Below, one piece after another: positions 1-55,862 of a stretch of 64,000 bases of DNA; position 1 is the first letter of the stretch; each line of letters opens with the position of its first letter. Origin of the DNA: Proteromonas lacertae (taxonomy: Eukaryota). The stretch spans positions 1 through 64,000 of the forward strand of contig NGBS01000899.1 in assembly GCA_002245135.1 (NCBI GenBank). The letters are read 5' to 3'. Position numbers and translations under genes: made by a program. A model generated the notes under the pieces. It had not been told where the DNA came from. It searched no databases and saw nothing but the letters and a program-made list of their open reading frames with translations.

Positions 1-171
1 AAAAACTCAAAATTCTTTTCAATTCTAACCAATCAAATTAAAGTATTCTATTTCAAAAATATTTTCAAACCCCATAAACAATTTTAATATAGTATGAGAA
101 TATAATTCAGAATATTGAAAGATAAAAGTTAAATGTTCAATAAATGAACAAATAACTCGCAATTTGTAAAC

Positions 172-3100
172 TTATGAAGCGAAGTTTACTATCGCACCCA
201 TAGTTGAAGCAGCTACAGAGTTCAATAAAATCAAGGCTGGTTGTTGAATACATACATCGATTGCCATTGAAATTGCAGAAGATATTATCCAACTGTTAGC
301 TTGTTGAGATGCAAATTTTACTCCATATAATAAGTTGATATACACCATAAACACGATGTAAATGAATACTACACTGTTTACACAGATTGTTATCGTTGTT
401 CTCATTCTTTTTTTGTCTTAACCATTCAACATATTCTTTCTTTCTTTGAATCTTATTCTTTGTTACTCGAATTCGGAATAAATTCAAGATTTTATTTCCA
501 GCTTCTTTTATCTCAGCATTTTCAAAATCAGTATTATCTTGATTATTTAATACTTTATTGAAATTGAAACAAATGTAAGACATTTCTAAAGACATCTTTT
601 CTAATAAACATAATATTCCGACAATAAAATAGATTATCCAAATGTAATTATATTTCTTAAATGCATCAGATAATTTTGAAGAACAACTTATTGGATCAAT
701 TCCTACAGCTAAATAATCATTATCAAAACAATTTCGAACATTATAATCATCTACACTTTTATAACCACAACATTCGAGATTATCTTCGATATAAATTATT
801 AATTCTTTTGTTCCTACTGATTTCGTCAAAGATTTCCATAAAGAATGAATACTTCCATTATTATCAAATGTTACTAATATACTGTAAATAAAACATACCA
901 GACATAATACAAATAGTATTAAGTCACAAACAAATAAGTAAATAAATGGAGTTTTCTTGAAAGAATTTACACTGATAAAAGTAAAGATTGATTCGATTAT
1001 TAATAAATCAATACAACAGTAAATATCAAGGATGGAGGTCCAAATGGCATTATACATAATACACAGATGTAGAATATTAAACTGAAGAAGAATAATACAA
1101 AACATCCACCTAATAAACCTATCTTCATTCGAGTTAAGGTTGGATTACTTACATTATTATGTAATATATAATCTAATCTCTTCTTCAAGAAACTCAAATT
1201 ATACCATTTGCCTTTACCTTTTATTGTCTTTGATGTACAACCATTCGCATATTTATATAACAAGGAATTATTAAAGTACAAGGTAACATACATAATGTAG
1301 AGATTATTGAAGTTGAAGATTAATTGAGCTACATTCTCAGCATCACTAGAGAAGAATAAGGCATTCACTGCGGTGGATGTCATTAATTGACATGTTAAAC
1401 ATAAGATTCGTTGACTTCGAGTTATTACTACTATTCCATTTACTGGCTTTAATGTTGGAGATAACCAACTATGTTCAGCTTTTAAATCTAACCAGAATCG
1501 AACTAAGAAATTTACTTTCTCTTCTTCAATATTCTTCTTCAATGTATTTTCAGCTACTTTCTCATCCAATACACCTACATTCAAGAATTGATCAGCTTTC
1601 CTTTCTTTTATTATAGATTTTTCTTTATTATCTCGATATTTGTATAACTCCAAGATAAAGCACATAACAATAATACACAACCTAAGATGATTGGAACAAT
1701 CATATTACTAGAATCATAATTTCCTAATAACTTCGCATCACTTATTGGATTTACTATATTCATTTTTGGAATGATTTTATTATTTCGAATTGTAAAATCA
1801 CTTAAATGAATTGCACCACAGGTTACAATTGTCACACTGGAAGTTCTTTCGATATTATATACATAAACACCTTTACTACTCAATTTCTTCGTTTCAGGAT
1901 CATAATAGGTACATTCCACATCTTTTAATGCAACATCATTCGATACTCGTTGAGTAAAGTATATTGGATCATTTAAATTTTCAACTTCTTCATTTTTACC
2001 ATCTTCTTTTATTATTGAAATTGTTTAAAGTTCCACTCGTTATATTTTCATTTTCCATTTCTTTTATTGCATTATCTTTCCATTCTACTATCTCGATTGA
2101 CGATTTATCTTCTATTTCGCCAGATAATAGTCGTTTATTTGTATTATAATACTCAAATCAACAGAACCACTTGAAGTATTTATCACACCATCTTTATTCT
2201 TATTGCATTTTAATAATTTTATATCAAATATATCATTCTCCATTTTAATCTCTTCCTCTTGCTCATTTCCTTTTACATTCTTGGAATAACTCTTGGAGAT
2301 TTCATCTACTAAATTCTTTGCTTCACTTGTCACACTTTTATCTTCATCAACTAAGATTCTTCTTTTATTAAACATTTCTTCTTTCTTTTCAAATCGAACC
2401 ATCGAGGATATACTCTTCAAATAGGATGATAAACTATCGATTCTTACTGATGATGATGATGATGATAAAGATTTTATTGATGAATTTACTAATTTTAATG
2501 ATTTCTTCACTATTTCTTCATCTAACATTGATTCATTTTCTAATAAACTTTCAATCACAAATGATTTTTGTTCGTGAGAATTTGAACTTTCACTTGCTGT
2601 TTCAGTATAATTCATAAATTGATTGTTTAATTTTATTACATTTTCACTATCTGTTTCATTACTAAATTCACAATTTGAACCATAATAACCAGATAGACAT
2701 TCACATTTTGTATAACAGTTCAAATCATATTCTTTACATTTAGTATCAGTCTTTTTACAGTCACCATGATCACTACATGCTTTACCATGTCGATTACCAT
2801 CATTGTCAAGATATTCACCTGGACATAATTTTGATGGAGGCTTCACAAGTTTTATAACAATCAACTATTTCAAACCATTCACCATCACATTTTTTACCAT
2901 TCTCACATTTTCTAGATCGAATCATTTTACCTTTAACTTCTAAACCATTGAAGTTTATACATTCAGCACTACATTCTGATTCTATCCATTTACTCCATTC
3001 ACCTTTTACATTTCCTTCATTTGAACATTCTTTTAATGTTTTGGTGTATGTTTGAGGATTATATTCACATTCTTTTCCTCCATATTGAGGCATTGTTTCA

Positions 3101-6100
3101 CATTTATTATAACTATGACATTCTACACTTCCACAATCTCCACTACATACTTCTACAGGTTTACAATTACTACAGTCAACTGGTTTGTGATTTTCACATC
3201 TCTCACCATAATAATCATCATTACATTTACATTGTCTATTACTATCACATGTTCCATGAATACAAGTTTCAACTTTACAATTTCGATTTAATTCTTTAGA
3301 TACTGAACCAATGTAGGTAAATACTTGGGAACTACTTTGCAAAGTATCTAATTTTTCTTTTGTATTTTGAACTAATTGTGCTTTATCATTAACATTAATT
3401 CTCTTAATGTTAATTTTAGCTTCATTTCCATCTTGTGTTTTATTTGTTGAACCCAATTTGACCATTACTTCCTTTGGCAAACACTGTTATTGTTACTTCA
3501 CCCATTGGTAATATACCTGTGTAATTAGCTTCACTTTTAAAACCATCTTGTAAATAATAATTATTACCATCAACTGTTGCCATAAATTCATATTCTATTT
3601 CTTCAGATGATTTTGATGAAGTCTTTTGTTTCCATCCAGCGGTTTTAATAGTTACAGAAGTACCAAAATCAACTGGATTAGTAGTAGGATTAACAAATTC
3701 AATATAACCCTTAAATGGAACATCACAATCTTCAGAATGAACAGTATGAGAGACTTCTTCACTATAATCTTTATTTAATGGAGATTTTACTTTCAAACTT
3801 AAATTCATAATCACCACTTGAAGAAAACATTCCTGGAGTTAATTCAATCTTTTTATCATTCTTTATATTGGCATTTGTTATTGCTTCAATTAATGTTGGA
3901 GTTTGTTTATCATCAGAACAAGACCATTCATATTTTAAGTCTCTTTTACCATCTCCTATTGATTTACTTCCATCTAATATTATATTATCATAACAGCCTA
4001 TTGAATTTCCACCTTCAATTATTGCTCTTGTTTCAATCACTACTCCATATTTTACATTTATACAACCTTTCACATGATTCTTTTCACTTTGTAATGAGCT
4101 TTCAATAAATTGTAAGGTATTATCATATACATCTCCTTCCACACACTCAGATGACTCACTTGGCAAAATTGTTGCATCATTAGATAAGGTAATCATCATC
4201 TTCTTACTATCATTTTCACTTAAGAAACATCTTGCATTTGAACCTAAATTAGTATTCTTTAATATTGAACTACATACATCTTCTTTGGTTGTTATACCTG
4301 ATTTGATTTCTTCTTCAAATTCTACTTCGATTGCAGAAGCAGATACAAATCTTGCAGTTTTTATTGACAAATCATTAAATACTTCTTGATGGAATTGATA
4401 TTCAAATTCTTTCTTATAATAATCAACATAATATGGATTAACACCTACTATTATCTTCACTAAAATTTCTTCACTTTGAATTGAACTAGGAATTGTTACT
4501 TTCGCAAAGAAATCACCTCTATCAGTATATACATAATTCAATTCACTAATTATTTCATTATTAACACTCACATTGTAATGAACTAAGGGATAAGATATTC
4601 CTCTTATTGGAATTAAACATTCTTCACCTACTTTACAATTTACTTCTTTGGGATAGATTGTGAATTTGTATGTTGGAACTTGTGCAGATGAATAAAATAA
4701 ATCATCACTTTTCATACTCAATGAAAAGGATTCTTCACTTATACTATCTCCACTTTTATCAAATGTAATAGCATAATCTTGTTTCATGTTGTATTGGTTA
4801 AATACTTTATTGTAATTGATATCACTTGTTGTAATTCTTGATGATAAGATTGGATTTATTGTTACATCTTTACTTGGTGTAACATTTAAACTTATATAAA
4901 CTTGAGCACTATTTACTGTATTATCTACTATTGAACCAATATCAAATGAGATATTCATTCCACTTCTCATTTCTGGGATTTTACTACTTCCATCTAATTC
5001 TATGTATTTACTGAATGAACTATTAGCTAATAAACCATCACTAGTAATAAGTGGCATATTTGGTTGAACAAATATTGGAATTCTTTCATTACCAACAATT
5101 TCAGATGATAAATAGAAATTATCTTTTAATATATTGTTTATTTTTTCAATATAATCACCATCAGCTTTATTAACATATGCATTTTTGTTAGTTTCAAAAA
5201 TTCCATTACCATATATAACAACACCATTTCCCATAGTCATTGTTACTCCACCACCAACAGCTTTCATTTGTTGACTTTCAACACCATCAACATATGCATA
5301 AGAATTATAAATTGAACCAGTACCTGATGAATACATAAAGTAGCCAAAATTACCTTGATTTGATACAGCAAAATTACCGCTTGTTAGTATAATCACTCCA
5401 CTTTTATCTAATTTAAATGAATTACTAGTACTTGCACCAGTTAATCCACCAAAATTAGTTCCTGATGGAAAAGCAGTTTTGATCTTCATTTGTACAAAAC
5501 AACTGGAAATGCTTGGAGCTTGCATATATCCTACAATACCTCCAAATTTTATATTGTTTATCATAGATAATTCAGTTCTTATGTTAAATAGATTATTCTC
5601 AATTGATGTAAATGAAGAACCATATGCATTGCTATTTTCAGTTAAACCTCGTGCAAATGAATCTACATTTCCATATAGTCCACCAACATAAATATTACTT
5701 GACTTAATGATTAAACTGTTCAAATCAACATAATTGTTGTATGTTTGTCCTTCATGTAAGCCAAATATATTACCAAAATAACTTTGAGAAGTACCATCTT
5801 CCACTATTACATTATCACCTGTAACGAATAAATTCTCTGATACAGATACAATATTGTTATTAGATTGAGGATCTAAATCATAGGTAGAATGATAATATCC
5901 ACTTATAAATCCAAAATATTTCCCAGAAATCATAGACACAGTTACTGTAACAGGACTACTTTCACCCTTTAATATAACACCAACACCACGTAATTTACTA
6001 CCAGCAGCTACTTCATTTGTTAATATACCAACATTATTATTGTTATTACAAGCTAGTTTTATGCTTGAAGCAATTTGTACTGTCACATCTACAAAATCAA

Positions 6101-6503
6101 CTTTAACACCTGGATCAATAATACCACATTGTGTGAAGATAATATCTTCAGGGTTTGTTAAAAGATGATCATCTACTTCTATGCGAAAAGCAACATTGTA
6201 TAACTTAAATCCTTCAACAATACCTCCATTAAATAGTCGTAAACCCAAAGAGTATGATTGAATTATAGTATCATCAACAGTGTATTTAAGTGTAATCAAA
6301 GTATTAGTACCATTACCAATAATACCAGTTATTCCATCAAGTGCAAACTGATTCGGATTAGTCATCTCAATCTGGATAGGTTTTAAAAGCCTAGCAATTC
6401 CATCTTTCACTTCAACTGAGTCAGTAAGACCATCAAGAGAAGCAGCTCCTGCGTTTGACAAGAGTAAGAGCAGAAAACAAGTAATGAATAAGATAGATTT
6501 CAT
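172..6503 (-). CDS. Polycystin-1-like/GPS surface receptor with tetraspanin insert, copy 1 (about 10 single-base frameshifts, probably sequence errors)
   Basis: ORF fragments 172-6551 are collinear with the intact 2115-aa ORF at 8067-14414. The ATG of signal peptide MKSILFITCFLLLLLSNAGA is at 6503. Indels versus copy 2 (near 410, 1005, 1260, 1316, 1642, 2025, 2150, 2839, 3452, 3796) are all +/-1 changes, nearly all in homopolymer runs. Confidence 0.85.
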
Positions 6504-6591
6504 TCTAGAATATTCTAAAAATGAATTATCGTTTTTTATATTTATTTGCATTATTGATTGAAAATATTGATATGTGTTTCTTTCAGATATA

Positions 6592-7586
6592 TATGTATAA
6601 TGCCATTTGGACCTCCATCCTTGATATTTACTGTTGTATTGATTTTATTAATAATCGAATCAATCTTTACTTTTATCAGTGTAAATTCTTTCAAGAAAAC
6701 TCCATTTATTTACTTATTTGTTTGTGACTTAATACTATTTGTATTATGTCTGGTATGTTTTATTTACAGTATATTAGTAACATTTGATAATAATGGAAGT
6801 ATTCATTCTTTATGGAAATCTTTGACGAAATCAGTAGGAACAAAAGAATTAATAATTTATATCGAAGATAATCTCGAATGTTGTGGTTATAAAAGTGTAG
6901 ATGATTATAATGTTCGAAATTGTTTTGATAATGATTATTTAGCTGTAGGAATTGATCCAATAAGTTGTTCTTCAAAATTATCTGATGCATTTAAGAAATA
7001 TAATTACATTTGGATAATCTATTTTATTGTCGGAATATTATGTTTATTAGAAAAGATGTCTTTAGAAATGTCTTACATTTGTTTCAATTTCAATAAAGTA
7101 TTAAATAATCAAGATAATACTGATTTTGAAAATGCTGAGATAAAAGAAGCTGGAAATAAAATCTTGAATTTATTCCGAATTCGAGTAACAAAGAATAAGA
7201 TTCAAAGAAAGAAAGAATATGTTGAATGGTTAAGACAAAGAAGAATGAGAACAACGATAACAATCTGTGTAAACAGTGTAGTATTCATTTACATCGTGTT
7301 TATGGTGTATATCAACTTATTATATGGAGTAAAATTTGCATCTCAACAAGCTAACAGTTGGATAATATCTTCTGCAATTTCAATGGCAATCGATGTATGT
7401 ATTCAACAACCAGCCTTGATTTTATTGAACTCTGTAGCTGCTTCAACTATGGGTGCGATAGTAAACTTCGCTTCATAAGTTTACAAATTGCGAGTTATTT
7501 GTTCATTTATTGAACATTTAACTTTTATCTTTCAATATTCTGAATTATATTCTCATACTATATTAAAATTGTTTGTTTTAAGGGTT
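6592..7586 (+). repeat. Inverted duplication of the receptor 3' end and 3' UTR; carries ORF 6600-7478 (292 aa from an in-frame ATG)
   Basis: Reverse complement of 7959-8953, with one mismatch seen near the end. Also matches ~76-1056 of copy 1. The protein is identical to the receptor C-terminus from MPFGPPS to VNFAS. Confidence 0.92.
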
Positions 7587-8066
7587 AGTTTTATTTTTAA
7601 CATTTCTATGTTATGAATCAAAATACACACTACTTTTAATCATACTTAATTATCAAAATTTATTTCAACTAGTTAAACAAGAAATACTAGTTGTACTATC
7701 AGACTTAGGTAAAATGTACTTTCAAAAAATATCTTAATTTTATACAATTAATTATCAATTGTCATAAATTTCTCTTTATAATCATTATAAATATTTTGAA
7801 TTATATCAAGCAATATTTTGATGAATAGCTCTTGTTTAAAAGATACTGAAAAACTTAGGTGTAAAAATTATAACAACTGAATCTTATAATTAAATAAGTA
7901 AGATCAACTGTACTAAGTATTATGACATGAATTTATATTGCTTAACTGTTGTTAAATAAACCCTTAAAAAAAACAATTTTAATATAGTATGAGAATATAA
8001 TTCAGAATATTGAAAGATAAAAGTTAAATGTTCAATAAATGAACAAATAACTCGCAATTTGTAAAC

Positions 8067-11000
8067 TTATGAAGCGAAGTTTACTATCGCACCCATAGTT
8101 GAAGCAGCTACAGAGTTCAATAAAATCAAGGCTGGTTGTTGAATACATACATCGATTGCCATTGAAATTGCAGAAGATATTATCCAACTGTTAGCTTGTT
8201 GAGATGCAAATTTTACTCCATATAATAAGTTGATATACACCATAAACACGATGTAAATGAATACTACACTGTTTACACAGATTGTTATCGTTGTTCTCAT
8301 TCTTCTTTGTCTTAACCATTCAACATATTCTTTCTTTCTTTGAATCTTATTCTTTGTTACTCGAATTCGGAATAAATTCAAGATTTTATTTCCAGCTTCT
8401 TTTATCTCAGCATTTTCAAAATCAGTATTATCTTGATTATTTAATACTTTATTGAAATTGAAACAAATGTAAGACATTTCTAAAGACATCTTTTCTAATA
8501 AACATAATATTCCGACAATAAAATAGATTATCCAAATGTAATTATATTTCTTAAATGCATCAGATAATTTTGAAGAACAACTTATTGGATCAATTCCTAC
8601 AGCTAAATAATCATTATCAAAACAATTTCGAACATTATAATCATCTACACTTTTATAACCACAACATTCGAGATTATCTTCGATATAAATTATTAATTCT
8701 TTTGTTCCTACTGATTTCGTCAAAGATTTCCATAAAGAATGAATACTTCCATTATTATCAAATGTTACTAATATACTGTAAATAAAACATACCAGACATA
8801 ATACAAATAGTATTAAGTCACAAACAAATAAGTAAATAAATGGAGTTTTCTTGAAAGAATTTACACTGATAAAAGTAAAGATTGATTCGATTATTAATAA
8901 AATCAATACAACAGTAAATATCAAGGATGGAGGTCCAAATGGCATTATACATAATACACAGATGTAGAATATTAAACTGAAGAAGAATAATACAAAACAT
9001 CCACCTAATAAACCTATCTTCATTCGAGTTAAGGTTGGATTACTTACATTATTATGTAATATATAATCTAATCTCTTCTTCAAGAAACTCAAATTATACC
9101 ATTTGCCTTTACCTTTTATTGTCTTTGATGTACAACCATTCGCATATTTATATAACCAAGGAATTATTAAAGTACAAGGTAACATACATAATGTAGAGAT
9201 TATTGAAGTTGAGATTAATTGAGCTACATTCTCAGCATCACTAGAGAAGAATAAGGCATTCACTGCGGTGGATGTCATTAATTGACATGTTAAACATAAG
9301 ATTCGTTGACTTCGAGTTATTACTACTATTCCATTTACTGGCTTTAATGTTGGAGATAACCAACTATGTTCAGCTTTTAAATCTAACCAGAATCGAACTA
9401 AGAAATTTACTTTCTCTTCTTCAATATTCTTCTTCAATGTATTTTCAGCTACTTTCTCATCCAATACACCTACATTCAAGAATTGATCAGCTTTCCTTTC
9501 TTTTATTATAGATTTTTCTTTATTATCTCGATATTTGGTATAACTCCAAGATAAAGCACATAACAATAATACACAACCTAAGATGATTGGAACAATCATA
9601 TTACTAGAATCATAATTTCCTAATAACTTCGCATCACTTATTGGATTTACTATATTCATTTTTGGAATGATTTTATTATTTCGAATTGTAAAATCACTTA
9701 AATGAATTGCACCACAGGTTACAATTGTCACACTGGAAGTTCTTTCGATATTATATACATAAACACCTTTACTACTCAATTTCTTCGTTTCAGGATCATA
9801 ATAGGTACATTCCACATCTTTTAATGCAACATCATTCGATACTCGTTGAGTAAAGTATATTGGATCATTTAAATTTTCAACTTCTTCATTTTTACCATCT
9901 TCTTTTATTATTGAAATTGTTAAAGTTCCACTCGTTATATTTTCATTTTCCATTTCTTTTATTGCATTATCTTTCCATTCTACTATCTCGATTGACGATT
10001 TATCTTCTATTTCGCCAGATAATAGTCGTTTATTTGTATTATAATTACTCAAATCAACAGAACCACTTGAAGTATTTATCACACCATCTTTATTCTTATT
10101 GCATTTTAATAATTTTATATCAAATATATCATTCTCCATTTTAATTTCTTCCTCTTGCTCATTTCCTTTTACATTCTTGGAATAACTCTTGGAGATTTCA
10201 TCTACTAAATTCTTTGCTTCACTTGTCACACTTTTATCTTCATCAACTAAGATTCTTCTTTTATTAAACATTTCTTCTTTCTTTTCAAATCGAACCATCG
10301 AGGATATACTCTTCAAATAGGATGATAAACTATCGATTCTTACTGATGATGATGATGATGATAAAGATTTTATTGATGAATTTACTAATTTTAATGATTT
10401 CTTCACTATTTCTTCATCTAACATTGATTCATTTTCTAATAAACTTTCAATCACAAATGATTTTTGTTCGTGAGAATTTGAACTTTCACTTGCTGTTTCA
10501 GTATAATTCATAAATTGATTGTTTAATTTTATTACATTTTCACTATCTGTTTCATTACTAAATTCACAATTTGAACCATAATAACCAGATAGACATTCAC
10601 ATTTTGTATAACAGTTCAAATCATATTCTTTACATTTAGTATCAGTCTTTTTACAGTCACCATGATCACTACATGCTTTACCATGTCGATTACCATCATT
10701 GTCAAGATATTCACCTGGACATAATTTTGATGGAGCTTCACAAGTTTTATAACAATCAACTATTTCAAACCATTCACCATCACATTTTTTACCATTCTCA
10801 CATTTTCTAGATCGAATCATTTTACCTTTAACTTCTAAACCATTGAAGTTTATACATTCAGCACTACATTCTGATTCTATCCATTTACTCCATTCACCTT
10901 TTACATTTCCTTCATTTGAACATTCTTTTAATGTTTTGGTGTATGTTTGAGGATTATATTCACATTCTTTTCCTCCATATTGAGGCATTGTTTCACATTT

Positions 11001-14000
11001 ATTATAACTATGACATTCTACACTTCCACAATCTCCACTACATACTTCTACAGGTTTACAATTACTACAGTCAACTGGTTTGTGATTTTCACATCTCTCA
11101 CCATAATAATCATCATTACATTTACATTGTCTATTACTATCACATGTTCCATGAATACAAGTTTCAACTTTACAATTTCGATTTAATTCTTTAGATACTG
11201 AACCAATGTAGGTAAATACTTGGGAACTACTTTGCAAAGTATCTAATTTTTCTTTTGTATTTTGAACTAATTGTGCTTTATCATTAACATTAATTCTCTT
11301 AATGTTAATTTTAGCTTCATTTCCATCTTGTGTTTTATTTGTTGAACCAATTTGACCATTACTTCCTTTGGCAAACACTGTTATTGTTACTTCACCCATT
11401 GGTAATATACCTGTGTAATTAGCTTCACTTTTAAAACCATCTTGTAAATAATAATTATTACCATCAACTGTTGCCATAAATTCATATTCTATTTCTTCAG
11501 ATGATTTTGATGAAGTCTTTTGTTTCCATCCAGCGGTTTTAATAGTTACAGAAGTACCAAAATCAACTGGATTAGTAGTAGGATTAACAAATTCAATATA
11601 ACCCTTAAATGGAACATCACAATCTTCAGAATGAACAGTATGAGAGACTTCTTCACTATAATCTTTATTTAATGGAGATTTTACTTTCAACTTAAATTCA
11701 TAATCACCACTTGAAGAAAACATTCCTGGAGTTAATTCAATCTTTTTATCATTCTTTATATTGGCATTTGTTATTGCTTCAATTAATGTTGGAGTTTGTT
11801 TATCATCAGAACAAGACCATTCATATTTTAAGTCTCTTTTACCATCTCCTATTGATTTACTTCCATCTAATATTATATTATCATAACAGCCTATTGAATT
11901 TCCACCTTCAATTATTGCTCTTGTTTCAATCACTACTCCATATTTTACATTTATACAACCTTTCACATGATTCTTTTCACTTTGTAATGAGCTTTCAATA
12001 AATTGTAAGGTATTATCATATACATCTCCTTCCACACACTCAGATGACTCACTTGGCAAAATTGTTGCATCATTAGATAAGGTAATCATCATCTTCTTAC
12101 TATCATTTTCACTTAAGAAACATCTTGCATTTGAACCTAAATTAGTATTCTTTAATATTGAACTACATACATCTTCTTTGGTTGTTATACCTGATTTGAT
12201 TTCTTCTTCAAATTCTACTTCGATTGCAGAAGCAGATACAAATCTTGCAGTTTTTATTGACAAATCATTAAATACTTCTTGATGGAATTGATATTCAAAT
12301 TCTTTCTTATAATAATCAACATAATATGGATTAACACCTACTATTATCTTCACTAAAATTTCTTCACTTTGAATTGAACTAGGAATTGTTACTTTCGCAA
12401 AGAAATCACCTCTATCAGTATATACATAATTCAATTCACTAATTATTTCATTATTAACACTCACATTGTAATGAACTAAGGGATAAGATATTCCTCTTAT
12501 TGGAATTAAACATTCTTCACCTACTTTACAATTTACTTCTTTGGGATAGATTGTGAATTTGTATGTTGGAACTTGTGCAGATGAATAAAATAAATCATCA
12601 CTTTTCATACTCAATGAAAAGGATTCTTCATTTATACTATCTCCACTTTTATCAAATGTAATAGCATAATCTTGTTTCATGTTGTATTGGTTAAATACTT
12701 TATTGTAATTGATATCACTTGTTGTAATTCTTGATGATAAGATTGGATTTATTGTTACATCTTTACTTGGTGTAACATTTAAACTTATATAAACTTGAGC
12801 ACTATTTACTGTATTATCTACTATTGAACCAATATCAAATGAGATATTCATTCCACTTCTCATTTCTGGGATTTTACTACTTCCATCTAATTCTATGTAT
12901 TTACTGAATGAACTATTAGCTAATAAACCATCACTAGTAATAAGTGGTATATTTGGTTGAACAAATATTGGAATTCTTTCATTACCAACAATTTCAGATG
13001 ATAAATAGAAATTATCTTTTAATGTATCAGTGATGCTTTGAATATCAGTTTTATCCTTATGTGTAAATTTATCATTTGTATCAATTCCGTTACCATAAGT
13101 AACAACATTACTATTAGCTTGTACAGATATTCCACTACCAACAGCTTTCATTTGTTGACTTTCAACACCATCAACATATGCATAAGAATCATAATAATAG
13201 CCAATACCTGATGTTGCTGTATGAAAATAAGCAACATTACCATTTGATGGTAAAGCAAAACTACCACTTGTTAGTATAATCACTGAAACGAAATGTAATT
13301 TAATCATACCAGAAGCACTACCCATCAATCCACCAAAATTAGTTCCTGATGGAAAAGCAGTTTTAATCTTCATTTGTATAAAACATTTGTAGAAAACAGC
13401 ACCATTAAATAATCCTGCAATACCTCCAAATTTTTCATCTGTTCCTTCAATTTTCAACTCATTTCTTAAATTGAATAAACTATTCTCAACATTTATTATA
13501 GAAGAAGTAACATCATCATTATAATTAGATAAACCAGAGGCTACAGCATCCACATTTCCATATAGTCCACCAACATAAGCACCACTAGTTTTGATGTAAA
13601 AATTGTCTAAATCAACATAATTATTATATGTCTTTCCTTTATGTAAACCAAATATATTACCAAAATAACTTTGAGAAGTACCATCTTCCACTATTACTTT
13701 ATCACCTGTAACGAATAAATTCTCTGATAAATCTGGATTAGTACAAATACCTTGTTGAATATTACAATCATATATACCACTTATAAATCCAAAATAATTT
13801 GTTAAACTCATTGAAACAGTTACTGTAACAGGACCATTGTCACCCCTGATAATTACACCAACACCACGTAATTTACTACCAGCAGCTAAGTAATTGGTTA
13901 ATAAACCAACACGACTATCACTGTGACTACATGTTAACTTTATGCTTGAAGAAATTTGCACTGTAACATCTACAAAATCAACTTTAACACCTGTATCAAC

Positions 14001-14381
14001 AATACCACATTCTGTAAAAACTATTGCAGTATTTTTAGTACTACGCTGATCATCTACTTCTACACGAAAAGCAACGTTGTATAACTTAAAACCATCAGGA
14101 ATAGCATTGAAAAGAGTCAAACTAAGATCATTAGGTGTTGGATCACCATCCTTCACTGTATACTTAAGAGTAATCAGAGTATTAGTACCATTACCAATAA
14201 TAGCACTGTATGAAGCAAGTTCGATCGGACTTTGAGTGGTCATCTCAATCTGGATAGGTTTTAAAAGCCTAGCAATTCCATCTTTCACTTCAACTGAGTC
14301 AGCAAGATCGGCAAGTGAAGCAGCTCCTGCGTTTGACAAGAGTAAGAGCAGAAAACAAGTAATGAATAAGATAGATTTCAT
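8067..14381 (-). CDS. Polycystin-1-like/GPS surface receptor with tetraspanin insert, copy 2 (intact, intronless, ~2104 aa)
   Basis: Signal peptide; GLUG-like GGLxG repeats; REJ-like ILDGSKSIGDG..LKYEWSC; EGF (CIHGTCD..CKCNDDYYGERC); TSP1 (WSKW..CSAEC..RSRKC); GPS (CTYYD..CGAIHLSDF); PKD1-type HSWLS..TRSQRILCL..NALFF and LYGVKF..WIISSAIS..IQQP; tetraspanin LECCGY. Confidence 0.85.
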   Translation of the reverse strand: MKSILFITCFLLLLLSNAGAASLADLADSVEVKDGIARLLKPIQIEMTTQSPIELASYSAIIGNGTNTLITLKYTVKDGDPTPNDLSLTLFNAIPDGFKLYNVAFRVEVDDQRSTKNTAIVFTECGIVDTGVKVDFVDVTVQISSSIKLTCSHSDSRVGLLTNYLAAGSKLRGVGVIIRGDNGPVTVTVSMSLTNYFGFISGIYDCNIQQGICTNPDLSENLFVTGDKVIVEDGTSQSYFGNIFGLHKGKTYNNYVDLDNFYIKTSGAYVGGLYGNVDAVASGLSNYNDDVTSSIINVENSLFNLRNELKIEGTDEKFGGIAGLFNGAVFYKCFIQMKIKTAFPSGTNFGGLMGSASGMIKLHFVSVIILTSGSFALPSNGNVAYFHTATSGIGYYYDSYAYVDGVESQQMKAVGSGISVQANSNVVTYGNGIDTNDKFTHKDKTDIQSITDTLKDNFYLSSEIVGNERIPIFVQPNIPLITSDGLLANSSFSKYIELDGSSKIPEMRSGMNISFDIGSIVDNTVNSAQVYISLNVTPSKDVTINPILSSRITTSDINYNKVFNQYNMKQDYAITFDKSGDSINEESFSLSMKSDDLFYSSAQVPTYKFTIYPKEVNCKVGEECLIPIRGISYPLVHYNVSVNNEIISELNYVYTDRGDFFAKVTIPSSIQSEEILVKIIVGVNPYYVDYYKKEFEYQFHQEVFNDLSIKTARFVSASAIEVEFEEEIKSGITTKEDVCSSILKNTNLGSNARCFLSENDSKKMMITLSNDATILPSESSECVEGDVYDNTLQFIESSLQSEKNHVKGCINVKYGVVIETRAIIEGGNSIGCYDNIILDGSKSIGDGKRDLKYEWSCSDDKQTPTLIEAITNANIKNDKKIELTPGMFSSSGDYEFKLKVKSPLNKDYSEEVSHTVHSEDCDVPFKGYIEFVNPTTNPVDFGTSVTIKTAGWKQKTSSKSSEEIEYEFMATVDGNNYYLQDGFKSEANYTGILPMGEVTITVFAKGSNGQIGSTNKTQDGNEAKINIKRINVNDKAQLVQNTKEKLDTLQSSSQVFTYIGSVSKELNRNCKVETCIHGTCDSNRQCKCNDDYYGERCENHKPVDCSNCKPVEVCSGDCGSVECHSYNKCETMPQYGGKECEYNPQTYTKTLKECSNEGNVKGEWSKWIESECSAECINFNGLEVKGKMIRSRKCENGKKCDGEWFEIVDCYKTCEAPSKLCPGEYLDNDGNRHGKACSDHGDCKKTDTKCKEYDLNCYTKCECLSGYYGSNCEFSNETDSENVIKLNNQFMNYTETASESSNSHEQKSFVIESLLENESMLDEEIVKKSLKLVNSSIKSLSSSSSSVRIDSLSSYLKSISSMVRFEKKEEMFNKRRILVDEDKSVTSEAKNLVDEISKSYSKNVKGNEQEEEIKMENDIFDIKLLKCNKNKDGVINTSSGSVDLSNYNTNKRLLSGEIEDKSSIEIVEWKDNAIKEMENENITSGTLTISIIKEDGKNEEVENLNDPIYFTQRVSNDVALKDVECTYYDPETKKLSSKGVYVYNIERTSSVTIVTCGAIHLSDFTIRNNKIIPKMNIVNPISDAKLLGNYDSSNMIVPIILGCVLLLCALSWSYTKYRDNKEKSIIKERKADQFLNVGVLDEKVAENTLKKNIEEEKVNFLVRFWLDLKAEHSWLSPTLKPVNGIVVITRSQRILCLTCQLMTSTAVNALFFSSDAENVAQLISTSIISTLCMLPCTLIIPWLYKYANGCTSKTIKGKGKWYNLSFLKKRLDYILHNNVSNPTLTRMKIGLLGGCFVLFFFSLIFYICVLCIMPFGPPSLIFTVVLILLIIESIFTFISVNSFKKTPFIYLFVCDLILFVLCLVCFIYSILVTFDNNGSIHSLWKSLTKSVGTKELIIYIEDNLECCGYKSVDDYNVRNCFDNDYLAVGIDPISCSSKLSDAFKKYNYIWIIYFIVGILCLLEKMSLEMSYICFNFNKVLNNQDNTDFENAEIKEAGNKILNLFRIRVTKNKIQRKKEYVEWLRQRRMRTTITICVNSVVFIYIVFMVYINLLYGVKFASQQANSWIISSAISMAIDVCIQQPALILLNSVAASTMGAIVNFAS

Positions 14382-14565
14382 TCTAGAATATTCGTTATTT
14401 TCGGTTATTCTCATCTCAATTTTTAATTAACCTTTTCATTAGAATAACGAGTGCATTAATTATAATTATGATGAAAGAATTATTTCTAGTAAGAATTATT
14501 TCCGAAGAACAGTATGTTTATAATGATTTATTTTCTATTTCATATAACTAAAATATCAATATATA

Positions 14566-25291: not shown

Positions 25292-27397
25292 TTATTCTGC
25301 ATTTTCTTCATTTATTAGAATTTTGACATAATCACTCCTATTATAGTTTTCATAGAAATAATCATTATATTCTCGTGTAATACATTTCACTGGTAAAACA
25401 GCTCTTTTGCAAAATGTTGATTGATATTCTATTTCTATTAATGAACATTTATCACTAACATTATATTTTCGAACTACGGGATATTCATAATTGAAGATAT
25501 TATCTAGTTTCTTTTCAACTTTTGAATAGAATTTCAACAAAATAGCTGGATTTATATGAAAGATATAATCATATACTAAATAATCATCAATAACACAAGA
25601 ACATATACCATTCACACACAACTCATTGGTTACATTTATTATGTGATAATTTGGTATGGCAAACATTGGAGGAAAGTTTACAAATGTTGAGTTTATTCCA
25701 ATTATTGTATAACATTTTGTTTTTCTATTGATTATACATTCTGAACACATACAATTGACATTATTCTTTCTTGAAACTGGATGATTGGCAAATGAGATTA
25801 TAATATCACTCTTTCTACTACATAAATATAACAATTCTTTATATCTGTCAACAAATGAATCATATTCATTTTCAATGATATATTGGTAAGCACTAAATAT
25901 GGGAATAATTATATGATAATATGATTTAATCTCTATATAGCTTGATTTAAATAGCTTTCGGAAATAATAATAGATATAAGTTAATGTCAAGTTTCTAACA
26001 TATGCATATTTTCTTAATATCCATAACCACTGAGTAGCATATGAATCACCTATCACTAAAATTGATCTCTTTGGATTATAATTACTTGGATATGTTTGGC
26101 AACAATCACACACAATATCTCCAAAGTAATTAAATAAAACTTCTGGATTATTAATGTTTATTTTTGAATAATCAATAGGTTTATCAAAAGTGTGTAAATA
26201 TAATGGAATTACTCTATCAATATAACCATCTGGTTTAGATATTATTGTCGATATATATTCAGACATATTATTATCAGAAGAATCTAAAAATGTTGGATTA
26301 TAATTCAATAATTTATCATGATAATAGTCATAATTTATGTAACATATATAACTATTAAGAAACGGAATTAATACCAACAACATATTCATGAAAAGCATTT
26401 GGTATTCTGACATTCTCAGCTTTTGAATTCTTTTGTCATATATTTCATAAAACAAAATACTTAAAGTAAATATTATAATAATCTTTATATATTTATTATT
26501 TGTTGGCAATAATTCTATTAAAGGATAATGAATTAGATATATTAAATAAGAACATTTTCCTATATATTTAATTATTCTATTACTCAGTAATATATTCTTC
26601 ATTTCTTTATGACTAATAATCAACAAACAGATAATAATCATAAACAACAACATAATTTGATCTGTGATTACTTTATTAAACGTTAAGAAACTATTAACAA
26701 AATGGAAAAGAAATGGTGAAATAATAAATAGTATACACAACACTATTTCATTAAATGAGTTTTTAAACTTTGTTAATTTTAATAATCCACCACTATTTAA
26801 TTCAAACATACGATAAAACAAAGAATAATATACACTTATGTCATTATAAATAAACATAATTCTTAAACCATAAGCAAATGATATTATTATCATCACAATC
26901 ATCAAATATATTGACATTTTATTAACTATATACAATAAAAATGGATATATTAAGTAATATTGAAACTCTACTGATAGAGACCAATAATTCATTATTGAGC
27001 TTGGATGTAAATCACTAAAATAATCTTGTTTTATACTTATAAAATACTGATTTGATAAGAATAAAGAACTATAATAAATATCATAGAATATAACTGGATT
27101 TGTATTATTCTGGTGCATTTTATATATCAAATAAACATACAATACAACACAAGAACACGGCATTATCCGTTTCAATCGCTTGTTAATAAATCTAAAATAT
27201 GTTGCACTAAAGGATTCTTCTTTGCTCATTTCTAAAGATTGTGTAATAAAATATCCAGATATTAGAAAGAAAATATCAACTCCCATATAGCCATAATCAA
27301 AATATTTGAAATGAAGATGAAACATTAAGACTAATATTACAGCATATCCTCTTAATCCATCAATATGATCAACATAGTCGGTAGTTTTATTTTTCAT
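25292..27397 (-). CDS. OafA-like acyltransferase-3 plus SGNH domain O-acetyltransferase (intronless)
   Basis: IDGLRGYAV..FH, GYMGVDIFFLISGY, RLKRIMP, WSLSVEFQYY, GKCSYLIYLIHYP; C-terminal GDSYA and DYIFH (approximate DxxH). Confidence 0.9.
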   Translation of the reverse strand: MKNKTTDYVDHIDGLRGYAVILVLMFHLHFKYFDYGYMGVDIFFLISGYFITQSLEMSKEESFSATYFRFINKRLKRIMPCSCVVLYVYLIYKMHQNNTNPVIFYDIYYSSLFLSNQYFISIKQDYFSDLHPSSIMNYWSLSVEFQYYLIYPFLLYIVNKMSIYLMIVMIIISFAYGLRIMFIYNDISVYYSLFYRMFELNSGGLLKLTKFKNSFNEIVLCILFIISPFLFHFVNSFLTFNKVITDQIMLLFMIIICLLIISHKEMKNILLSNRIIKYIGKCSYLIYLIHYPLIELLPTNNKYIKIIIIFTLSILFYEIYDKRIQKLRMSEYQMLFMNMLLVLIPFLNSYICYINYDYYHDKLLNYNPTFLDSSDNNMSEYISTIISKPDGYIDRVIPLYLHTFDKPIDYSKININNPEVLFNYFGDIVCDCCQTYPSNYNPKRSILVIGDSYATQWLWILRKYAYVRNLTLTYIYYYFRKLFKSSYIEIKSYYHIIIPIFSAYQYIIENEYDSFVDRYKELLYLCSRKSDIIISFANHPVSRKNNVNCMCSECIINRKTKCYTIIGINSTFVNFPPMFAIPNYHIINVTNELCVNGICSCVIDDYLVYDYIFHINPAILLKFYSKVEKKLDNIFNYEYPVVRKYNVSDKCSLIEIEYQSTFCKRAVLPVKCITREYNDYFYENYNRSDYVKILINEENAE

Positions 27398-27531
27398 GAT
27401 GCATAGATGCTTCAAAAAACAAGAAATAAAAATTATGAAACGAATATAATTTTTGTACTAATTTCTTTTCTTTTAACCACAAATAACAATCACATTTATT
27501 AACTTTATTTAAATGAGATAAATATATACTA

Positions 27532-28799
27532 TTAACTATTATTATATACAAATTTTTCTTTTGAGCGTAAATTGAATTTATCTTCATAACATTCTAGAGA
27601 AATAACAGATGATTTAATGACTAACAAATCTTTTTCATTGGTGGAACATATTGAAGTATCATTTTCTTTCACTTCTTCTGGAACTAATGGAGATTGTAGA
27701 AACACTTTTATCAATTAAATAAACATAATTAAATATTGAAAAATGATATATTTTCTCTATATCCATCTTCTTCATACACTGATTCAAAGTCATTTATATT
27801 AAAAATATGCAAAAAAGTGCGAAATACATATTTATTATCTTCATAAACAATGAATCTAGGTAATATAATTGTTCTATTCAATATCTTTCCCATATAAGCT
27901 AAAAATGTAATTGCATCTACTGGATTCACTTCCTTTACATTTAGTGAATATTTATATCTTATATATTTTCGTGTTTTGGATGAATAATATTCATTATCAT
28001 CAATTTTCCATAATCCCAATTCTTTAAATCGATATTTTTTAGCTATTCCTCCTTCTATACAATTATTGTGAAATCCGATTGTTTTACAATTTGTTACATC
28101 ATCCACAAAGTGTTTAAAATATCGAAAATAAAAAAATCCAATAGCAAATGTCAATAGACTAAATACTCCATATTTTAAATTATTTATTCTTTTCGCTGAG
28201 ATAATTAAATTAGTTATTCCTTGATCCATAAAATCAAAATCTCTTTGCCCGATTTTAGTTATCTCTAAAACTCTCTCAAACAGCCTTATTGATGCTTTTG
28301 TTGGTTTTATATACATTAATCCACAATTTAATTCTGTATGATTTCCTTCTATAAAATCAGTAGCATATGTAATATCATTCTTTGGATCTATATGATTTAA
28401 TAAATTTAAAGGATTTTCAAAGAAATATAAATCAGAATCAAAACATAGTATAGTTAAATTTTGCCTTAGATATTCCAGTAATATTTTGAATCTGTCATTT
28501 ATCTTTTTAGTATATTGCTCTGTGTATTGAAACGTTGATGCTACATTGTCATTCATCTCAATAGGAGAGTATTCTACAGGAATTCCATATTTTTCATACA
28601 CCGCATATGAAGATGGATTCCAAACTACCATTTTAAAATTTGGAACATTATATTTCAGTATTACTTCCTTATAAAAGTTTCTAACAAAATCTATTACATT
28701 GTAATCACCTACAATCACTATTTTATCAGGAATTGGTACATTATAGCAATTAACATTTATCCTGATAAAAAATATAATAATAAAGATATGATAAGACAT
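27532..28799 (-). CDS. Nucleotide-diphospho-sugar transferase (GT77-like) with signal anchor; one non-canonical intron at 27706-27749
   Basis: FDSD (DxD)..NP, LNCGLMYIKPT, MDQ..N, HNNC..KKYRFKELGLW; last exon VFLQSPLVP..NNS*. Confidence 0.8.
27706..27749 (-). other. Putative U12-type intron, 44 nt, AT-AA termini
   Basis: ATATCATTTT...TATTTAATTGATAAAA. Removal joins YREN to VFLQSPLVP in frame, and no local GT-AG pair restores the frame. Confidence 0.65.
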
Positions 28800-48595: not shown

Positions 48596-51500
48596 ATGTC
48601 TAGCTCAAAATTATTAAGTGAATCATTATACAAGACATATAAAGCTATACCGAATACTCGTTATTTAGATGAAAAGGGTATAATTTAGTTACTTACTCAT
48701 AATTAGATCTTGATATTATATATGAGATGATTAAATGCTGTGAAAATAAATACAATAAATCTGATTTTCATTTGGACGAAATATTATTAGTTTATAGCGA
48801 GATACTAAAGAAGAACAATATCAACCCTGATAATGATATGATCTTTTATCGGACTCTAGTGAAAATGGATCAAAGATGTAAAAGTAAGAACTGGAATGAA
48901 AAGTTCGAAATTCTGAAAAGAGTATAATAATGAATAATAATGAACTAGCATACAATATCCAGATTATCATTTCTAAGTGGTGATAAACCATCAGTAATAC
49001 AATCCCCTTCTGTAAGATCGTTAAAAGTGAGTGATTTAAAATCTAAACCCAAATCTTCTAGAAGAATTTCATTTTCTCCAGATACTCACTTTACAACATC
49101 ATCCAGAAGATCTACATCCTTTTCATTTAATCCTGATGATAATTCAAATACATTTTCAAAATCTTATAATTATCATCTCCCAGATAAATCATTTAATAAC
49201 TCTACGTTTTATGACAATAATTATTCATTTTCAACTCCATTAAGATCACAATATGATATACAAGAAAGATTTGCTAATAATAATAACAACAATAATTCAT
49301 TTTTAGTATGTTCATCTAACAATAACATCAATAACAACAGTAAGTTATACTTAGATCCAGTTATTGTACCAGAATCAGAATCAGATAATGAAATGACATA
49401 TTTACAAAATCAGAAATGTTCAATTGCTGTATATTATAATGTTTTATATATATTGCAATATAGAATAATTATTATAGTGGAAGACTTAAACAGAAATACT
49501 TTTATGAATGGAAGAATTATTTAGATAATAATATAACATATCCATTAAATGGATCATATATATTTATTCTATTAAAATGGATAAAAACTACACTCAGATT
49601 AAAACCAAATATTAATCTTCCAAATCGTATATCTATATATATATAATTGCGATTAAATAGAGATATATAATGAATTACAATCTAAAAACATACCAAATTC
49701 GATTCTAAACAGAATATCAATATCATCTCAAAGATATGAGAAAGTAATCCAAGCCATAACAATAATGCAAAAATGGCAAAAACTACGAATATTTCATGGT
49801 TGGTTTAATATAAGTAACAGTGTAAGTGGAATAAGAAAGAAAGTATGAATATATATATTAAAATATCTATTTACTGTTTATAGTATATCACTTTAAAGGA
49901 TAGATACAATTATAAACAGATGAGAAAGATGTTTTATTCCTGGAACAAACTAATAAAAGACAAAAAGCATTATTCAATTATAAAAGCTGAGAAATTTTAC
50001 TCCTTGCTTTTATTTCGAAAATGGAAGAATTATCATATAAAAATGAAACATTTTAATGATTTAATAAAGCAATTTCAGAATAATAATAAGATATATACTT
50101 ATAAGATATATTATAAATATTGGCGAAATGCATATATTTCAAAATTATTTTATCCTCAGAGTATAAAGAAATACTCATTCAACAGTTGGAAGAATTATAT
50201 AATGTTATTAAAACGATTTAAGATGATGAGAGAATATTACACTAAACATTTAATAAAGACAATCTTGAAAGAGTGGAAATTAGTTCCTGAGTATTATAAA
50301 AGAGCAGAAAGAATAATAAAGAAACTGAATAAAAAGAAGTTGAAGAAAATATTCGAAATATGGAAGAAATATTGTTTATATCACAAGAAAATGAAGATGG
50401 TTTATGAAACATCGGAATGTTATTATTTTCATAGATTATCATGTAAACTGATAAGAAAATGGAATAAAAATAGTAAATTAGATAAAGAATTGAGAGAAAT
50501 GAAAAAGAAGAAAAGAGAAATATTATGTAATTTATATTATAAGAAGTGGAATAGAAGTTATAAAATGAAAATTGGTTTAATAAAACTAGTAAAAACAATG
50601 ATAAAAATTACATTGAAAAACTCATTGTATAAGTTAAAGAGAATAACTAGAATAATGAAATCAATGAATAATGTAATGAAAGTATATGATTATGAGAATA
50701 AGAAGAGTGTATTTTATAAATGGAAGTTATTTGCTGATTATAAGAAGAATCAAAACATAAAATTGATGAAATATGAGAATAAAGTGAAGAGTGGTATATT
50801 ATGTATGTATTTAGAAAAATGGTATAACTATAAAGAGAAAGAAAGAAAGAAGCTGGAAATGTATTGTATATGTGATATATTTCATAATCATTATGTAATG
50901 ACAAAATCAATAAAACATATCCATAAGATTACCTGTATGAAGAAAGCAATAAAGAAACTGAAGAAAGTTGAAAAATGGAGATACATGGTATTCTGGAAGA
51001 AATATATAACATTCATAAAAGATCGAAATGAAAGATTGAAAGTGGTGTTAAGACTTACAAATAAATTCAATTTATATGAAAGATTTTTGAAATGGAAAGA
51101 TTATTTGAATATAACCAAAAATCATGAAGAAAAGTTATCAGAGTTATACCTCAAGAAAGATTTATCCATTACTAGAAAGATATTTGTTTTATGGAAAGAT
51201 TATTATCATAAAAAGAAAGAAAAAGAAATGAAATATAAGAAGTTGGATGAATATTATAAAGATAATAGAATTCATTATTCAATAAAGAAACTGATGAAGT
51301 ATAGAAAGAAATCTCAAGAAAATAAACAATTAAATCATGAAATGGATAGTTACTATTTAACGAAACAAACCAAGAAGTCATTATTGAAATGGAAAGACTA
51401 TAAAAACACTAAAATTTCAATGAAATCCAATTATAAGAAAGGAGTGATATTCAATATGAAGAAATATGTAGAATTTTGGCATAAATACAGTCGAAAGAAT

Positions 51501-54500: not shown

Positions 54501-55862
54501 ATTATCATTTTAAAGAGTGGAAAGATTATGTAAAATCAAAGAAACATTATGAAAAAAGTTCATTGTCAAATACATTTAACCATTGGAAGAATCTAATCCA
54601 AAAGAAAAAGAAGATTATGAATTTACTGTCTAAAATCCAAAAAGTTCATGTTAATCAACTTACTAATGCATTTCAAAGTTGGCATGAAACAAGTATTCCA
54701 TACATAAAGAATTGTGAAGTAGCAGAGAATCATTTCTTTGATAGAAGTGTAAGAAAGTATTTATTATTATGGAGAGATGAAGTGGTAAATATAAAACAAT
54801 ATAGATATATAAAACAGATATCAATAATGAAAATGTGGAGAAAATTCCTAAAAATGCAAAAGAAATACAAAAAAGAGAAATTAAAAGGAATGAATTTTTA
54901 TAAATACCACACTTATACAAAATTCTTCACAATGTGGAAGAAATACAGATTACACAGAATAGAACATAATTACAATATAAAACAAGCAATTCAATTCCAC
55001 AAAAGACAATGTTTGTGGTGGTGGAGAAGATATGCTGATTTAATGGAAATAGAAAGAACAATTCATGATAATCATAATGTAATAATAGCACAAACTCATT
55101 TCGATGCTTGGAAGAGTTATTTCTTTTATAAGTTGATAGTTGGTAATAAATATATAAAGAATTGGTATTTTTGGACAAAGAAAAGTAAACTATTGAAAGA
55201 AGCTGAAGTTAGATGGTTGACATTAGAAAAGAGTATATGGTTTGGTCAATGGAGAGATAGTTTATTATTTTCCAGAAATGATGTTATTGCTTCAAGATTC
55301 TTCTTACATAAAATGATGTTGAAATGGAAAAGACATGTTCAAATTTATAAAGGAGAAAAACATTATGTTAAACATTTAGAAGGAACAATATATCCAGTAT
55401 AATAATTATTATATTTATTATATATATATATGCTATATATAGATGTTACAAAGATGGTTGGCTATGGCAAAGAGAAATAAAAAGATAAAAACAATAGTGT
55501 TGGAATATGAAGATAAAAATAACCAAAAGAAGCTAAAGAAAGTGATTAATCAATGGATGATGTATAAGAATAAATCAATAATTACAAGAGATTTCAATAA
55601 TACAATAAGAGTATGGGAATTGAAAAGAGGATTAAGGTTAATGAAAGAATATTTGTTGTTTAGAAGGAGAACTGCAAAATTAGCTAAGAAATATTATTCT
55701 ACAAAGCTATTAAAGAAAATATTTTACACATGGAAAGATAAATTCCCTAGTGTTTATATGATATCTACTCCTTCTCCTGTTAAAGGAAGAAAACAGTTCT
55801 CACCTTCAGTTCCAAAATTATCAACTCCTACCAGACTATTAAGAAAGAAATTCTCTCCTTAA
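48596..55862 (+). CDS. SFI1: Sfi1-like centrin-binding protein with many Trp repeats
   Basis: Dozens of K/R-x-F-x-x-W-K/R motifs in basic helical sequence. N-terminal VYSEILKKNNINPDND.IFYR.L.K..W.EKF resembles the Sfi1 N-terminal region. Confidence 0.75.

What the first reader, a model, noticed from the sequence alone, without database searches (positions are those of the whole stretch)
5130..14381. Constant/variable paralogue pair: hypervariable mosaic N-terminal domain on a homogenised stalk
Seen: the copies differ by only a few substitutions over ~5 kb (for example 2250, 4738, 5056). They diverge abruptly at ~5130/~13023, and the first ~450 aa alternate between conserved blocks and unrelated patches with in-frame indels. 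Some blocks are nucleotide-identical, such as the signal peptide and SYAYVDGVESQQMKAVG. Inference: a beta-solenoid framework with diversified exposed faces, maintained by gene conversion or diversifying selection, as in variant-antigen, allorecognition or microbe-binding receptor families.
Basis: partly seen in the sequence, partly recalled or inferred. Interest (0 to 1): 0.8.

Follow-up and report, generated by a model that had tools for sequence, protein, structure and literature searches.

The report
Twin polycystin-like receptors with variable tips
An AT-rich eukaryote carries two neighbouring copies of a large predicted surface-receptor gene that are almost identical except for the outermost domain, a predicted beta-helix whose predicted loops differ, which likely means gene conversion keeps the bodies alike while selection keeps two different predicted binding tips, as in a sea-squirt self-recognition gene pair.

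Summary
Observation confirmed, with two omissions. Copies A (172-6503) and C (8067-14381), both on the minus strand, differ by 3 substitutions over about 5 kb of stalk. Their heads differ by 263 substitutions in 1,414 columns (62% amino-acid identity).

C is an intronless 2,104-aa polycystin-1/REJ-like protein: signal peptide, predicted GLUG/M26_N-type beta-helix head, PKD-like, EGF and TSP1 stalk, GPS motif, and 8-9 membrane helices containing an embedded tetraspanin-like unit. No paper on this layout turned up in my searches; two unnamed relatives share most of it.

The variable region is the beta-helix. Changes fall in predicted loops (90/175 against 40/176 in strands). Silent changes fade towards the middle of conserved blocks (p about 0.001), as expected from conversion opposed by selection.

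Against: dN/dS is 0.76; a run test is not significant; the model is low-confidence; six alleles of a relative show no variable head; there are no reads.

Closest parallel: Ciona s-Themis-B/B2. New variant of a known kind; ligand unknown.

The parts
8067..14381 (-). Gene C: intact, intronless, 2,104 aa (a further in-frame ATG at 14414); polycystin-1/REJ-like receptor
14322..14381 (-). Predicted signal peptide of C, nucleotide-identical in A
   Evidence: hydropathy; codon alignment
12963..14321 (-). Variable head of C (aa 21-473): predicted right-handed beta-helix of GLUG/Peptidase_M26_N type
11232..12962 (-). Beta-rich stalk with a PKD-like domain and the C-terminal part of a REJ region; about 300 aa present in relative P0001 are absent
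   Evidence: Pfam K319L-like_PKD E 6e-4, below cut-off; alignment to P0001, whose REJ hit is above cut-off
10557..11180 (-). Cysteine-rich EGF / TSP1 / EGF segment
   Evidence: weak Pfam EGF hits; TSP1 hits for P0001 and the family profile
9657..10544 (-). Predicted GAIN domain ending in a GPS motif (His at aa 1560, window 9704)
   Evidence: motif seen in C and P0001; Atlas GPS cluster 0.81, lead only; GAIN boundaries inferred
8082..9599 (-). Membrane block of 8-9 predicted helices; no PLAT or channel domain detected
   Evidence: hydropathy; Pfam
8472..9026 (-). Tetraspanin-like four-helix unit with CCG motif embedded in the membrane block
   Evidence: PF00335 E 7e-4, 19.7 bits, below the 32.1 cut-off; relative P0002 34 bits, above cut-off
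172..6503 (-). Copy A: same gene with a different head; stalk has 3 transitions and 10 single-base indels against C
5070..6443 (-). Variable head of A, open frame, 62% identical to the head of C
6592..7586 (+). Fragment B: inverted copy of C's last 995 nt (from aa 1810), 1 mismatch; ATG at 6600 opens a 292-aa frame holding most of the tetraspanin unit and the last two helices
6516..6591 (.). 76-nt unique linker between the 5' end of A and the start of B (head-to-head)
7587..7958 (.). 372-nt unique, non-palindromic spacer between the 3' ends of B and C

Best explanation
These are two neighbouring copies of a predicted polycystin-1-like surface receptor whose bodies are nearly identical, likely through ongoing gene conversion, while the predicted beta-helix tip is likely kept different by selection so that each copy would bind a different outside partner. 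Shown: identical bodies, divergent heads, unrelated flanks, domain order, the loop bias on a predicted model, and the silent-site gradient. Inferred: the receptor cleaves itself at the GPS motif and keeps the head on a long stalk. The loops on either side of the GLUG-like strand form the binding groove, most likely for surface glycans or proteins of other cells. Binding or pull on the head is passed to the membrane block, where the embedded tetraspanin would organise a membrane patch or recruit a separate channel partner, since the protein has no channel of its own. Conversion tracts spread through stalk and framework strands but are rejected where they would overwrite specificity loops. A's frameshifts are most likely sequencing errors near the window's left end. 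B is most likely a truncated third copy caught in the same homogenisation.
For: Stalk 3 substitutions in about 5,054 nt against head 263 in 1,414 columns. The break lies at the end of the predicted beta-helix. Differences: 90/175 non-strand against 40/176 strand positions, p 3e-8; polar 98/197, aliphatic/aromatic 38/137, Gly 8/45; 26 of 38 changed hydrophobic sites stay hydrophobic. Silent differences inside 18 conserved blocks: 16/72 at edges, 8/57, 4/64 in the middle, p about 0.001 under three gap settings. A divergence peak under conversion is a described signature of selection (PMC3924837, passages). Fold: Atlas GLUG/M26_N 0.92-0.93; best structural match PfbA Z 13.7, rmsd 4.9, 309 aligned, with mostly beta-helix proteins below it by entry title. 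Architecture shared with P0001 (34% over 1,216 aa; REJ above cut-off) and P0002 (tetraspanin above cut-off). A's indels: 10 indels against 3 substitutions, next to or within short runs, all in 76-3795 (p 0.004 if uniform), with 12,945 nt of single-copy ORF unbroken. Uncorrected indels also suggest A's stalk was not overwritten by polishing with C's reads (inference).
Against: Head dN 0.29, dS 0.38: ratio 0.76, not above 1. Sawyer-type run test p about 0.2, longest-run p about 0.38. Both models are low-confidence (mean pLDDT 35 and 44); Foldseek gave no hit at E 0.001 or better. Pfam Glug is only E 2.2, and the Atlas recognition value 2270 is just under its 2300 guide. The six alleles of P0001 vary at 10 of 472 head columns and 41 of 2,040 others, so a variable head is not general to the family (the cluster is capped at 90% identity). 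Only two heads are visible. A is broken as assembled. Kinship of the membrane block to PKD1 rests on recalled motifs; sequence searches of solved structures did not return PKD1. The ligand is untested.
Confidence: 0.58

Rival explanations
1. Head swapping: the genome holds a larger archive of heads, and segmental gene conversion moves whole heads or loop patches into expressed copies, as in antigenic-variation or cassette systems.
For: Both ends of the variable region are nucleotide-identical (21 codons at the start; stalk from the end of the helix), and identical blocks of 12-20 codons alternate with unrelated patches. The gene is intronless while neighbours have short introns.
Against: No extra head or cassette elsewhere in the 64 kb (tblastn; repeats). 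Silent differences persist within blocks (28 of 193 codons). P0001 alleles show no head variation.
Confidence: 0.15
2. One-off chimera and decay: a recent duplication gave identical stalks, A took its head from an older paralogue by a single recombination, and A and B are dead relics; no selection for different tips.
For: A is frameshifted as assembled and has only 76 nt of unique upstream DNA before B. B is truncated. dN/dS below 1.
Against: 10 indels to 3 substitutions, confined to one end, is unlike natural decay. The signal peptide and 12 nt upstream are identical to C, which one crossover does not explain. The silent-site gradient inside blocks needs repeated exchange or linked selection.
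Confidence: 0.15
3. Assembly artefact: A and C are haplotypes or a chimeric path through a shared block, and B is a fold-back remnant.
For: Error-like indels in A near the window's left end; an unusual inverted fragment.
Against: A, B and C have three different 3' flanks and A and C have different 5' flanks. The B-C spacer is 372 nt and not palindromic. A's stalk has its own three transitions. Read correction could hide a few percent divergence but not head-level divergence (inference). Even as alleles, the constant/variable contrast would be real.
Confidence: 0.12

Closest known systems
Ciona intestinalis s-Themis-B / s-Themis-B2 (PMC7018956; passages and section 6 read)
   Same: [quoted passage not shown]
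   Different: Themis has LH2 and, in the B type, a channel; it is multi-allelic and carries its ligand gene v-Themis nested within it. Here the gene is intronless, has a predicted beta-helix head and an embedded tetraspanin, no PLAT or channel, and no partner gene was seen. Allelic diversity is unknown.
Polycystin-1 / REJ family, including Ectocarpus Esi0130_0068 (PMC4700764, passages)
   Same: Long ectodomain with REJ-related region and GPS motif before several membrane helices. The brown-algal protein has 6-7 helices and positively selected ectodomain sites.
   Different: REJ is shortened by about 300 aa against P0001; EGF/TSP1 lies before the GAIN; tetraspanin insert; variation is confined to an N-terminal beta-helix, not REJ.
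GLUG / Peptidase_M26_N beta-helix domains and beta-helix adhesins (PfbA 3zpp, IgA1 protease 7uvk, Candida glabrata Awp3b 7o9p; PMC8746771 abstract)
   Same: Predicted right-handed beta-helix at the tip of a surface protein. Awp1/Awp3b are a eukaryotic paralogue family of such tips.
   Different: Sequence identity 7-10%; different anchors and no GPS or membrane block in those proteins. Awp1-A and Awp3b-A bound no carbohydrate in that study, so the fold does not fix the ligand.
Divergence peak under gene conversion, as in red/green opsins (PMC3924837, passages)
   Same: Paralogues homogenised except around selected sites.
   Different: Here the peak is a whole 450-aa domain with about 18 conserved blocks between variable patches; no outgroup is available to prove conversion.

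Membership tests
Polycystin-1 (PKD1) family | REJ domain | tested here: inconclusive
   No Pfam REJ hit in C. P0001 has REJ at E 5e-20 and C aligns to its C-terminal part, lacking about 300 aa.
Polycystin-1 (PKD1) family | GPS motif (H-L-S/T) just before the first helix | tested here: met
   Motif at aa 1560 in C and 1979 in P0001; consensus recalled. Pfam GPS not hit; Atlas GPS cluster 0.81. Cleavage itself untested.
Polycystin-1 (PKD1) family | PLAT/LH2 domain after the first helix | tested here: not met
   Only about 75 aa between helix 1 and the next segment; no Pfam PLAT hit.
Polycystin-1 (PKD1) family | C-terminal six-helix channel-like domain | tested here: not met
   The protein ends at aa 2104 right after the last helix; no PKD_channel hit.
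Polycystin-1 (PKD1) family | Homology of helices 2-5 to the PKD1 N-terminal membrane block | tested here: inconclusive
   Resemblance is recalled; PDB sequence searches did not return PKD1; this part was not folded.
Tetraspanin | Four helices with a CCG-bearing large loop | tested here: met
   CCG at aa 1906, hydropathy; PF00335 below cut-off in C, above cut-off in P0002.
Tetraspanin | Stand-alone small protein | tested here: not met
   Embedded in one 2,104-aa frame in C and in P0001 and P0002. B could encode a partial stand-alone form, untested.
GLUG / M26_N beta-helix | Right-handed beta-helix of repeated coils with a Gly-rich GLUG-like strand | tested here: inconclusive
   Atlas 0.92-0.93, Z up to 13.7, nine coils spaced 30-48 aa set by eye; but pLDDT 44 and Pfam Glug E 2.2.
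Themis-type allorecognition locus | Paralogues near-identical except the N-terminal region | tested here: met
Themis-type allorecognition locus | Polymorphic ligand gene nested in the first intron | tested here: not met
   C is one open frame with no intron.
Themis-type allorecognition locus | Many alleles in the population and a role in self/non-self choice | not testable with these tools
   One assembly window only.
Cassette antigenic-variation system | Archive of silent donor cassettes | tested here: inconclusive
   None in the window; the rest of the genome was not available.

The most novel reading that the evidence does not exclude
A microbial eukaryote has independently evolved a Themis-like recognition locus: self-cleaving polycystin-type receptors that carry their own tetraspanin and present exchangeable GLUG beta-helix tips, whose loops are diversified and reshuffled by micro-conversion to tell self from non-self cells or to sample microbes or host surfaces.
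Probability: 0.2. Interest if true: 0.82.

Novelty: new variant of a known kind. Interest (0 to 1): 0.55.

Why it matters
It would show the constant-body, variable-tip design of Ciona s-Themis-B/B2 recurring on a polycystin-like scaffold far from animals, with a different tip fold. It gives a natural two-state experiment: identical bodies with two heads, so swapping heads should swap specificity. The embedded tetraspanin is a layout I did not find described. It suggests how a channel-less polycystin-like protein could organise its own signalling patch, echoing the tetraspanin-adhesion GPCR association noted in PMC13197933 (passages).

Tried and rejected
No whole genome is held, so other copies could not be counted. 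No sequencing run was listed and no RNA holder was listed, so no reads were laid; this is no evidence either way.

Alternative genetic codes 4, 6 and 25 do not join A's pieces; the breaks are frameshifts.

Head homologue searches found nothing: 0 of 7,992 candidates and 0 at E 0.001 among 1.84 billion representatives. The heads of P0001 and P0002 match the A/C profile only at non-significant scores, so head homology to them is not shown. Shorter relatives of the membrane part: 0 of 7,993. Metagenome and viral contig scans: 140 and 72 pattern matches, none confirmed. Earlier scan findings: none.

The single-sequence fold (pLDDT 35) was not searched. PDB sequence hits for the membrane part at E above 1 were treated as chance.

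A recalled Blastocystis-type transcript-end motif was dropped: 10 matches in the window, and it is intact only in B. Retroposition: no poly(A) remnant at any of the three 3' junctions. Fold-back artefact for B: the spacer is not palindromic. Inversion between A's tail and B as a switch: flipping would leave the same upstream neighbours, so no switch is evident (reasoning). The lineage was not determined; a Blastocystis paper (PMC10690189, passages) was read as a lead only. PMC3482391 (one passage) added nothing specific. No complex was predicted and no supplements were read.
Full report
Setting. The window is 22-32% GC per 2 kb and eukaryotic: kinesin, Prp3, an EF-G-like spliceosomal GTPase, Sfi1-like and SHIPPO-repeat proteins, with AT-rich GT-AG introns of 38-41 nt at three of six junctions examined. 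SHIPPO suggests a flagellated cell (recalled). The lineage was not determined. No whole genome was available.

Observation. Self-BLAST shows a direct duplication, 76-6515 against 7971-14393, and an inverted copy, 6592-7586 against 8953-7959. C is one open frame of 2,104 aa from the ATG at 14381. A's stalk differs from C's by three transitions: 2250 (silent, read from the context), 4738 (Asn/Ser) and 5055 (Ile/Met). It also differs by 10 single-base indels and a C/T beside one of them. From 5131/13024 the copies differ by 263 substitutions and 72 gap columns in 1,414, 62% amino-acid identity over 461 columns. Identity resumes over the signal peptide and ends 12 nt above the ATG. The 3' identity of A, B and C ends about 90-105 nt after the stop, and all outer flanks are unrelated.

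A's frameshifts. Ten indels against three substitutions, mostly lengthening or shortening short runs, all within 76-3795 (p 0.004 if uniform over the copy), while 12,945 nt of single-copy ORFs and the 6.3-kb C frame are unbroken. This looks like low-depth long-read consensus rather than decay; it is an inference, and no reads could be laid. Uncorrected indels also argue that the stalk identity is not produced by polishing with C's reads.

What the protein is. Pfam gives only sub-threshold hits in C: K319L-like PKD, EGF, and tetraspanin at E 7e-4. A search with the membrane part found 2 proteins among 7,876 candidates. P0001 is 34% identical over 1,216 aa and has REJ and PKD hits above cut-off and weak TSP1 hits. 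P0002 has a tetraspanin hit above cut-off. C and P0001 carry a GPS-type H-L-S/T motif before the first helix; P0002 does not. Hydropathy gives 8-9 helices, with the CCG tetraspanin unit in the middle. No PLAT or channel domain is present. Kinship of the flanking helices to PKD1's N-terminal membrane block is recalled and was not confirmed. It works like a polycystin-1-type receptor but fails two family features, so I do not file it as a PKD1 member.

The head. No sequence relative was found. Atlas features match GLUG and Peptidase_M26_N clusters at 0.92-0.93, with 153-163 shared features and recognition 2270, so moderate evidence. A two-sequence AlphaFold model (pLDDT 44, pTM 0.53) matches PfbA at Z 13.7 (rmsd 4.9, 309 aligned), then mostly lyases, tailspikes, IgA1 protease and Awp3b. 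Foldseek hits are of the same kind but not significant. On this model 90/175 non-strand and 40/176 strand positions differ (residues 1-351 of 464 scored). In a hand-set nine-coil register, 88/158 loop and 41/168 strand positions differ, with loops before and after the GLUG-like strand at 41/79 and 47/79. In pectate-lyase-like helices two such loops flank the binding groove (recalled), which suggests a diversified groove.

How the pattern arose. Head dN is 0.29 and dS 0.38, against one silent change in the whole stalk. Inside 18 conserved blocks of four or more residues, silent differences are 16/72 at the edges, 8/57 at 3-4 codons in, and 4/64 deeper (p about 0.001). This fits conversion tracts that stop at selected loops, the divergence-peak signature reviewed in PMC3924837 (passages). 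A run test on the same sites is not significant (p about 0.2), and without an outgroup conversion is not proven. Six alleles of P0001 vary evenly, 10/472 head columns against 41/2,040 elsewhere, so a variable head is a property of this pair, not of the family as sampled.

Fragment B starts at aa 1810, within the first tetraspanin helix, 76 nt from A's 5' end. An ATG at 6600 gives a 292-aa frame. It may be a truncated third copy or a small head-to-head gene; unexplained.

Comparison. The closest parallel is Ciona s-Themis-B/B2, polycystin-1-like paralogues almost identical except for the N-terminal hypervariable region (PMC7018956, passages and section 6). The nested ligand gene, LH2 and channel are absent here. 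A brown-algal REJ-GPS protein shows positive selection in its ectodomain (PMC4700764, passages). Candida Awp adhesins show eukaryotic beta-helix tips (PMC8746771, abstract). Four literature searches for this architecture and one for GLUG in eukaryotes listed no description of it; I saw listings only for papers not cited above, and the library lacks most subscription journals.

Verdict. A real constant/variable pair with a plausible, partly known evolutionary mechanism, on a receptor layout I could not find described. Selection, ligand, expression and the integrity of A remain untested. Interest 0.55; new variant of a known kind.

Noticed in passing
window 25292-27415 (-) and 27729-28799 (-): An uninterrupted 707-aa acyltransferase-3 plus weak SGNH frame (OafA-like layout, recalled) lies next to a nucleotide-diphospho-sugar transferase: a possible surface-glycan modification pair, perhaps of bacterial origin.
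   Followed up: no
P0001, P0003-P0007: Among 26 informative sites of the six alleles, 75 of 325 pairs fail the four-gamete test, hinting at recombination between alleles in that unnamed eukaryote; chimeric short-read assembly is not excluded.
   Followed up: partly
P0002: Relative with the tetraspanin-bearing membrane block but no H-L-S/T motif and no REJ hit: a possibly uncleaved family member.
   Followed up: no
window 76, 7574-7586, 7959-7971: The three 3' copies stop matching at almost the same point, about 90-105 nt after the stop, and the 5' match ends 12 nt above the ATG: the homogenised unit is close to a transcript in extent, but no poly(A) remnant is present.
   Followed up: partly
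window 49884-55402 (+): A long intron-split gene with an Sfi1-like hit and W/Y/K-rich repeats, probably a centrin-binding centriolar protein.
   Followed up: no
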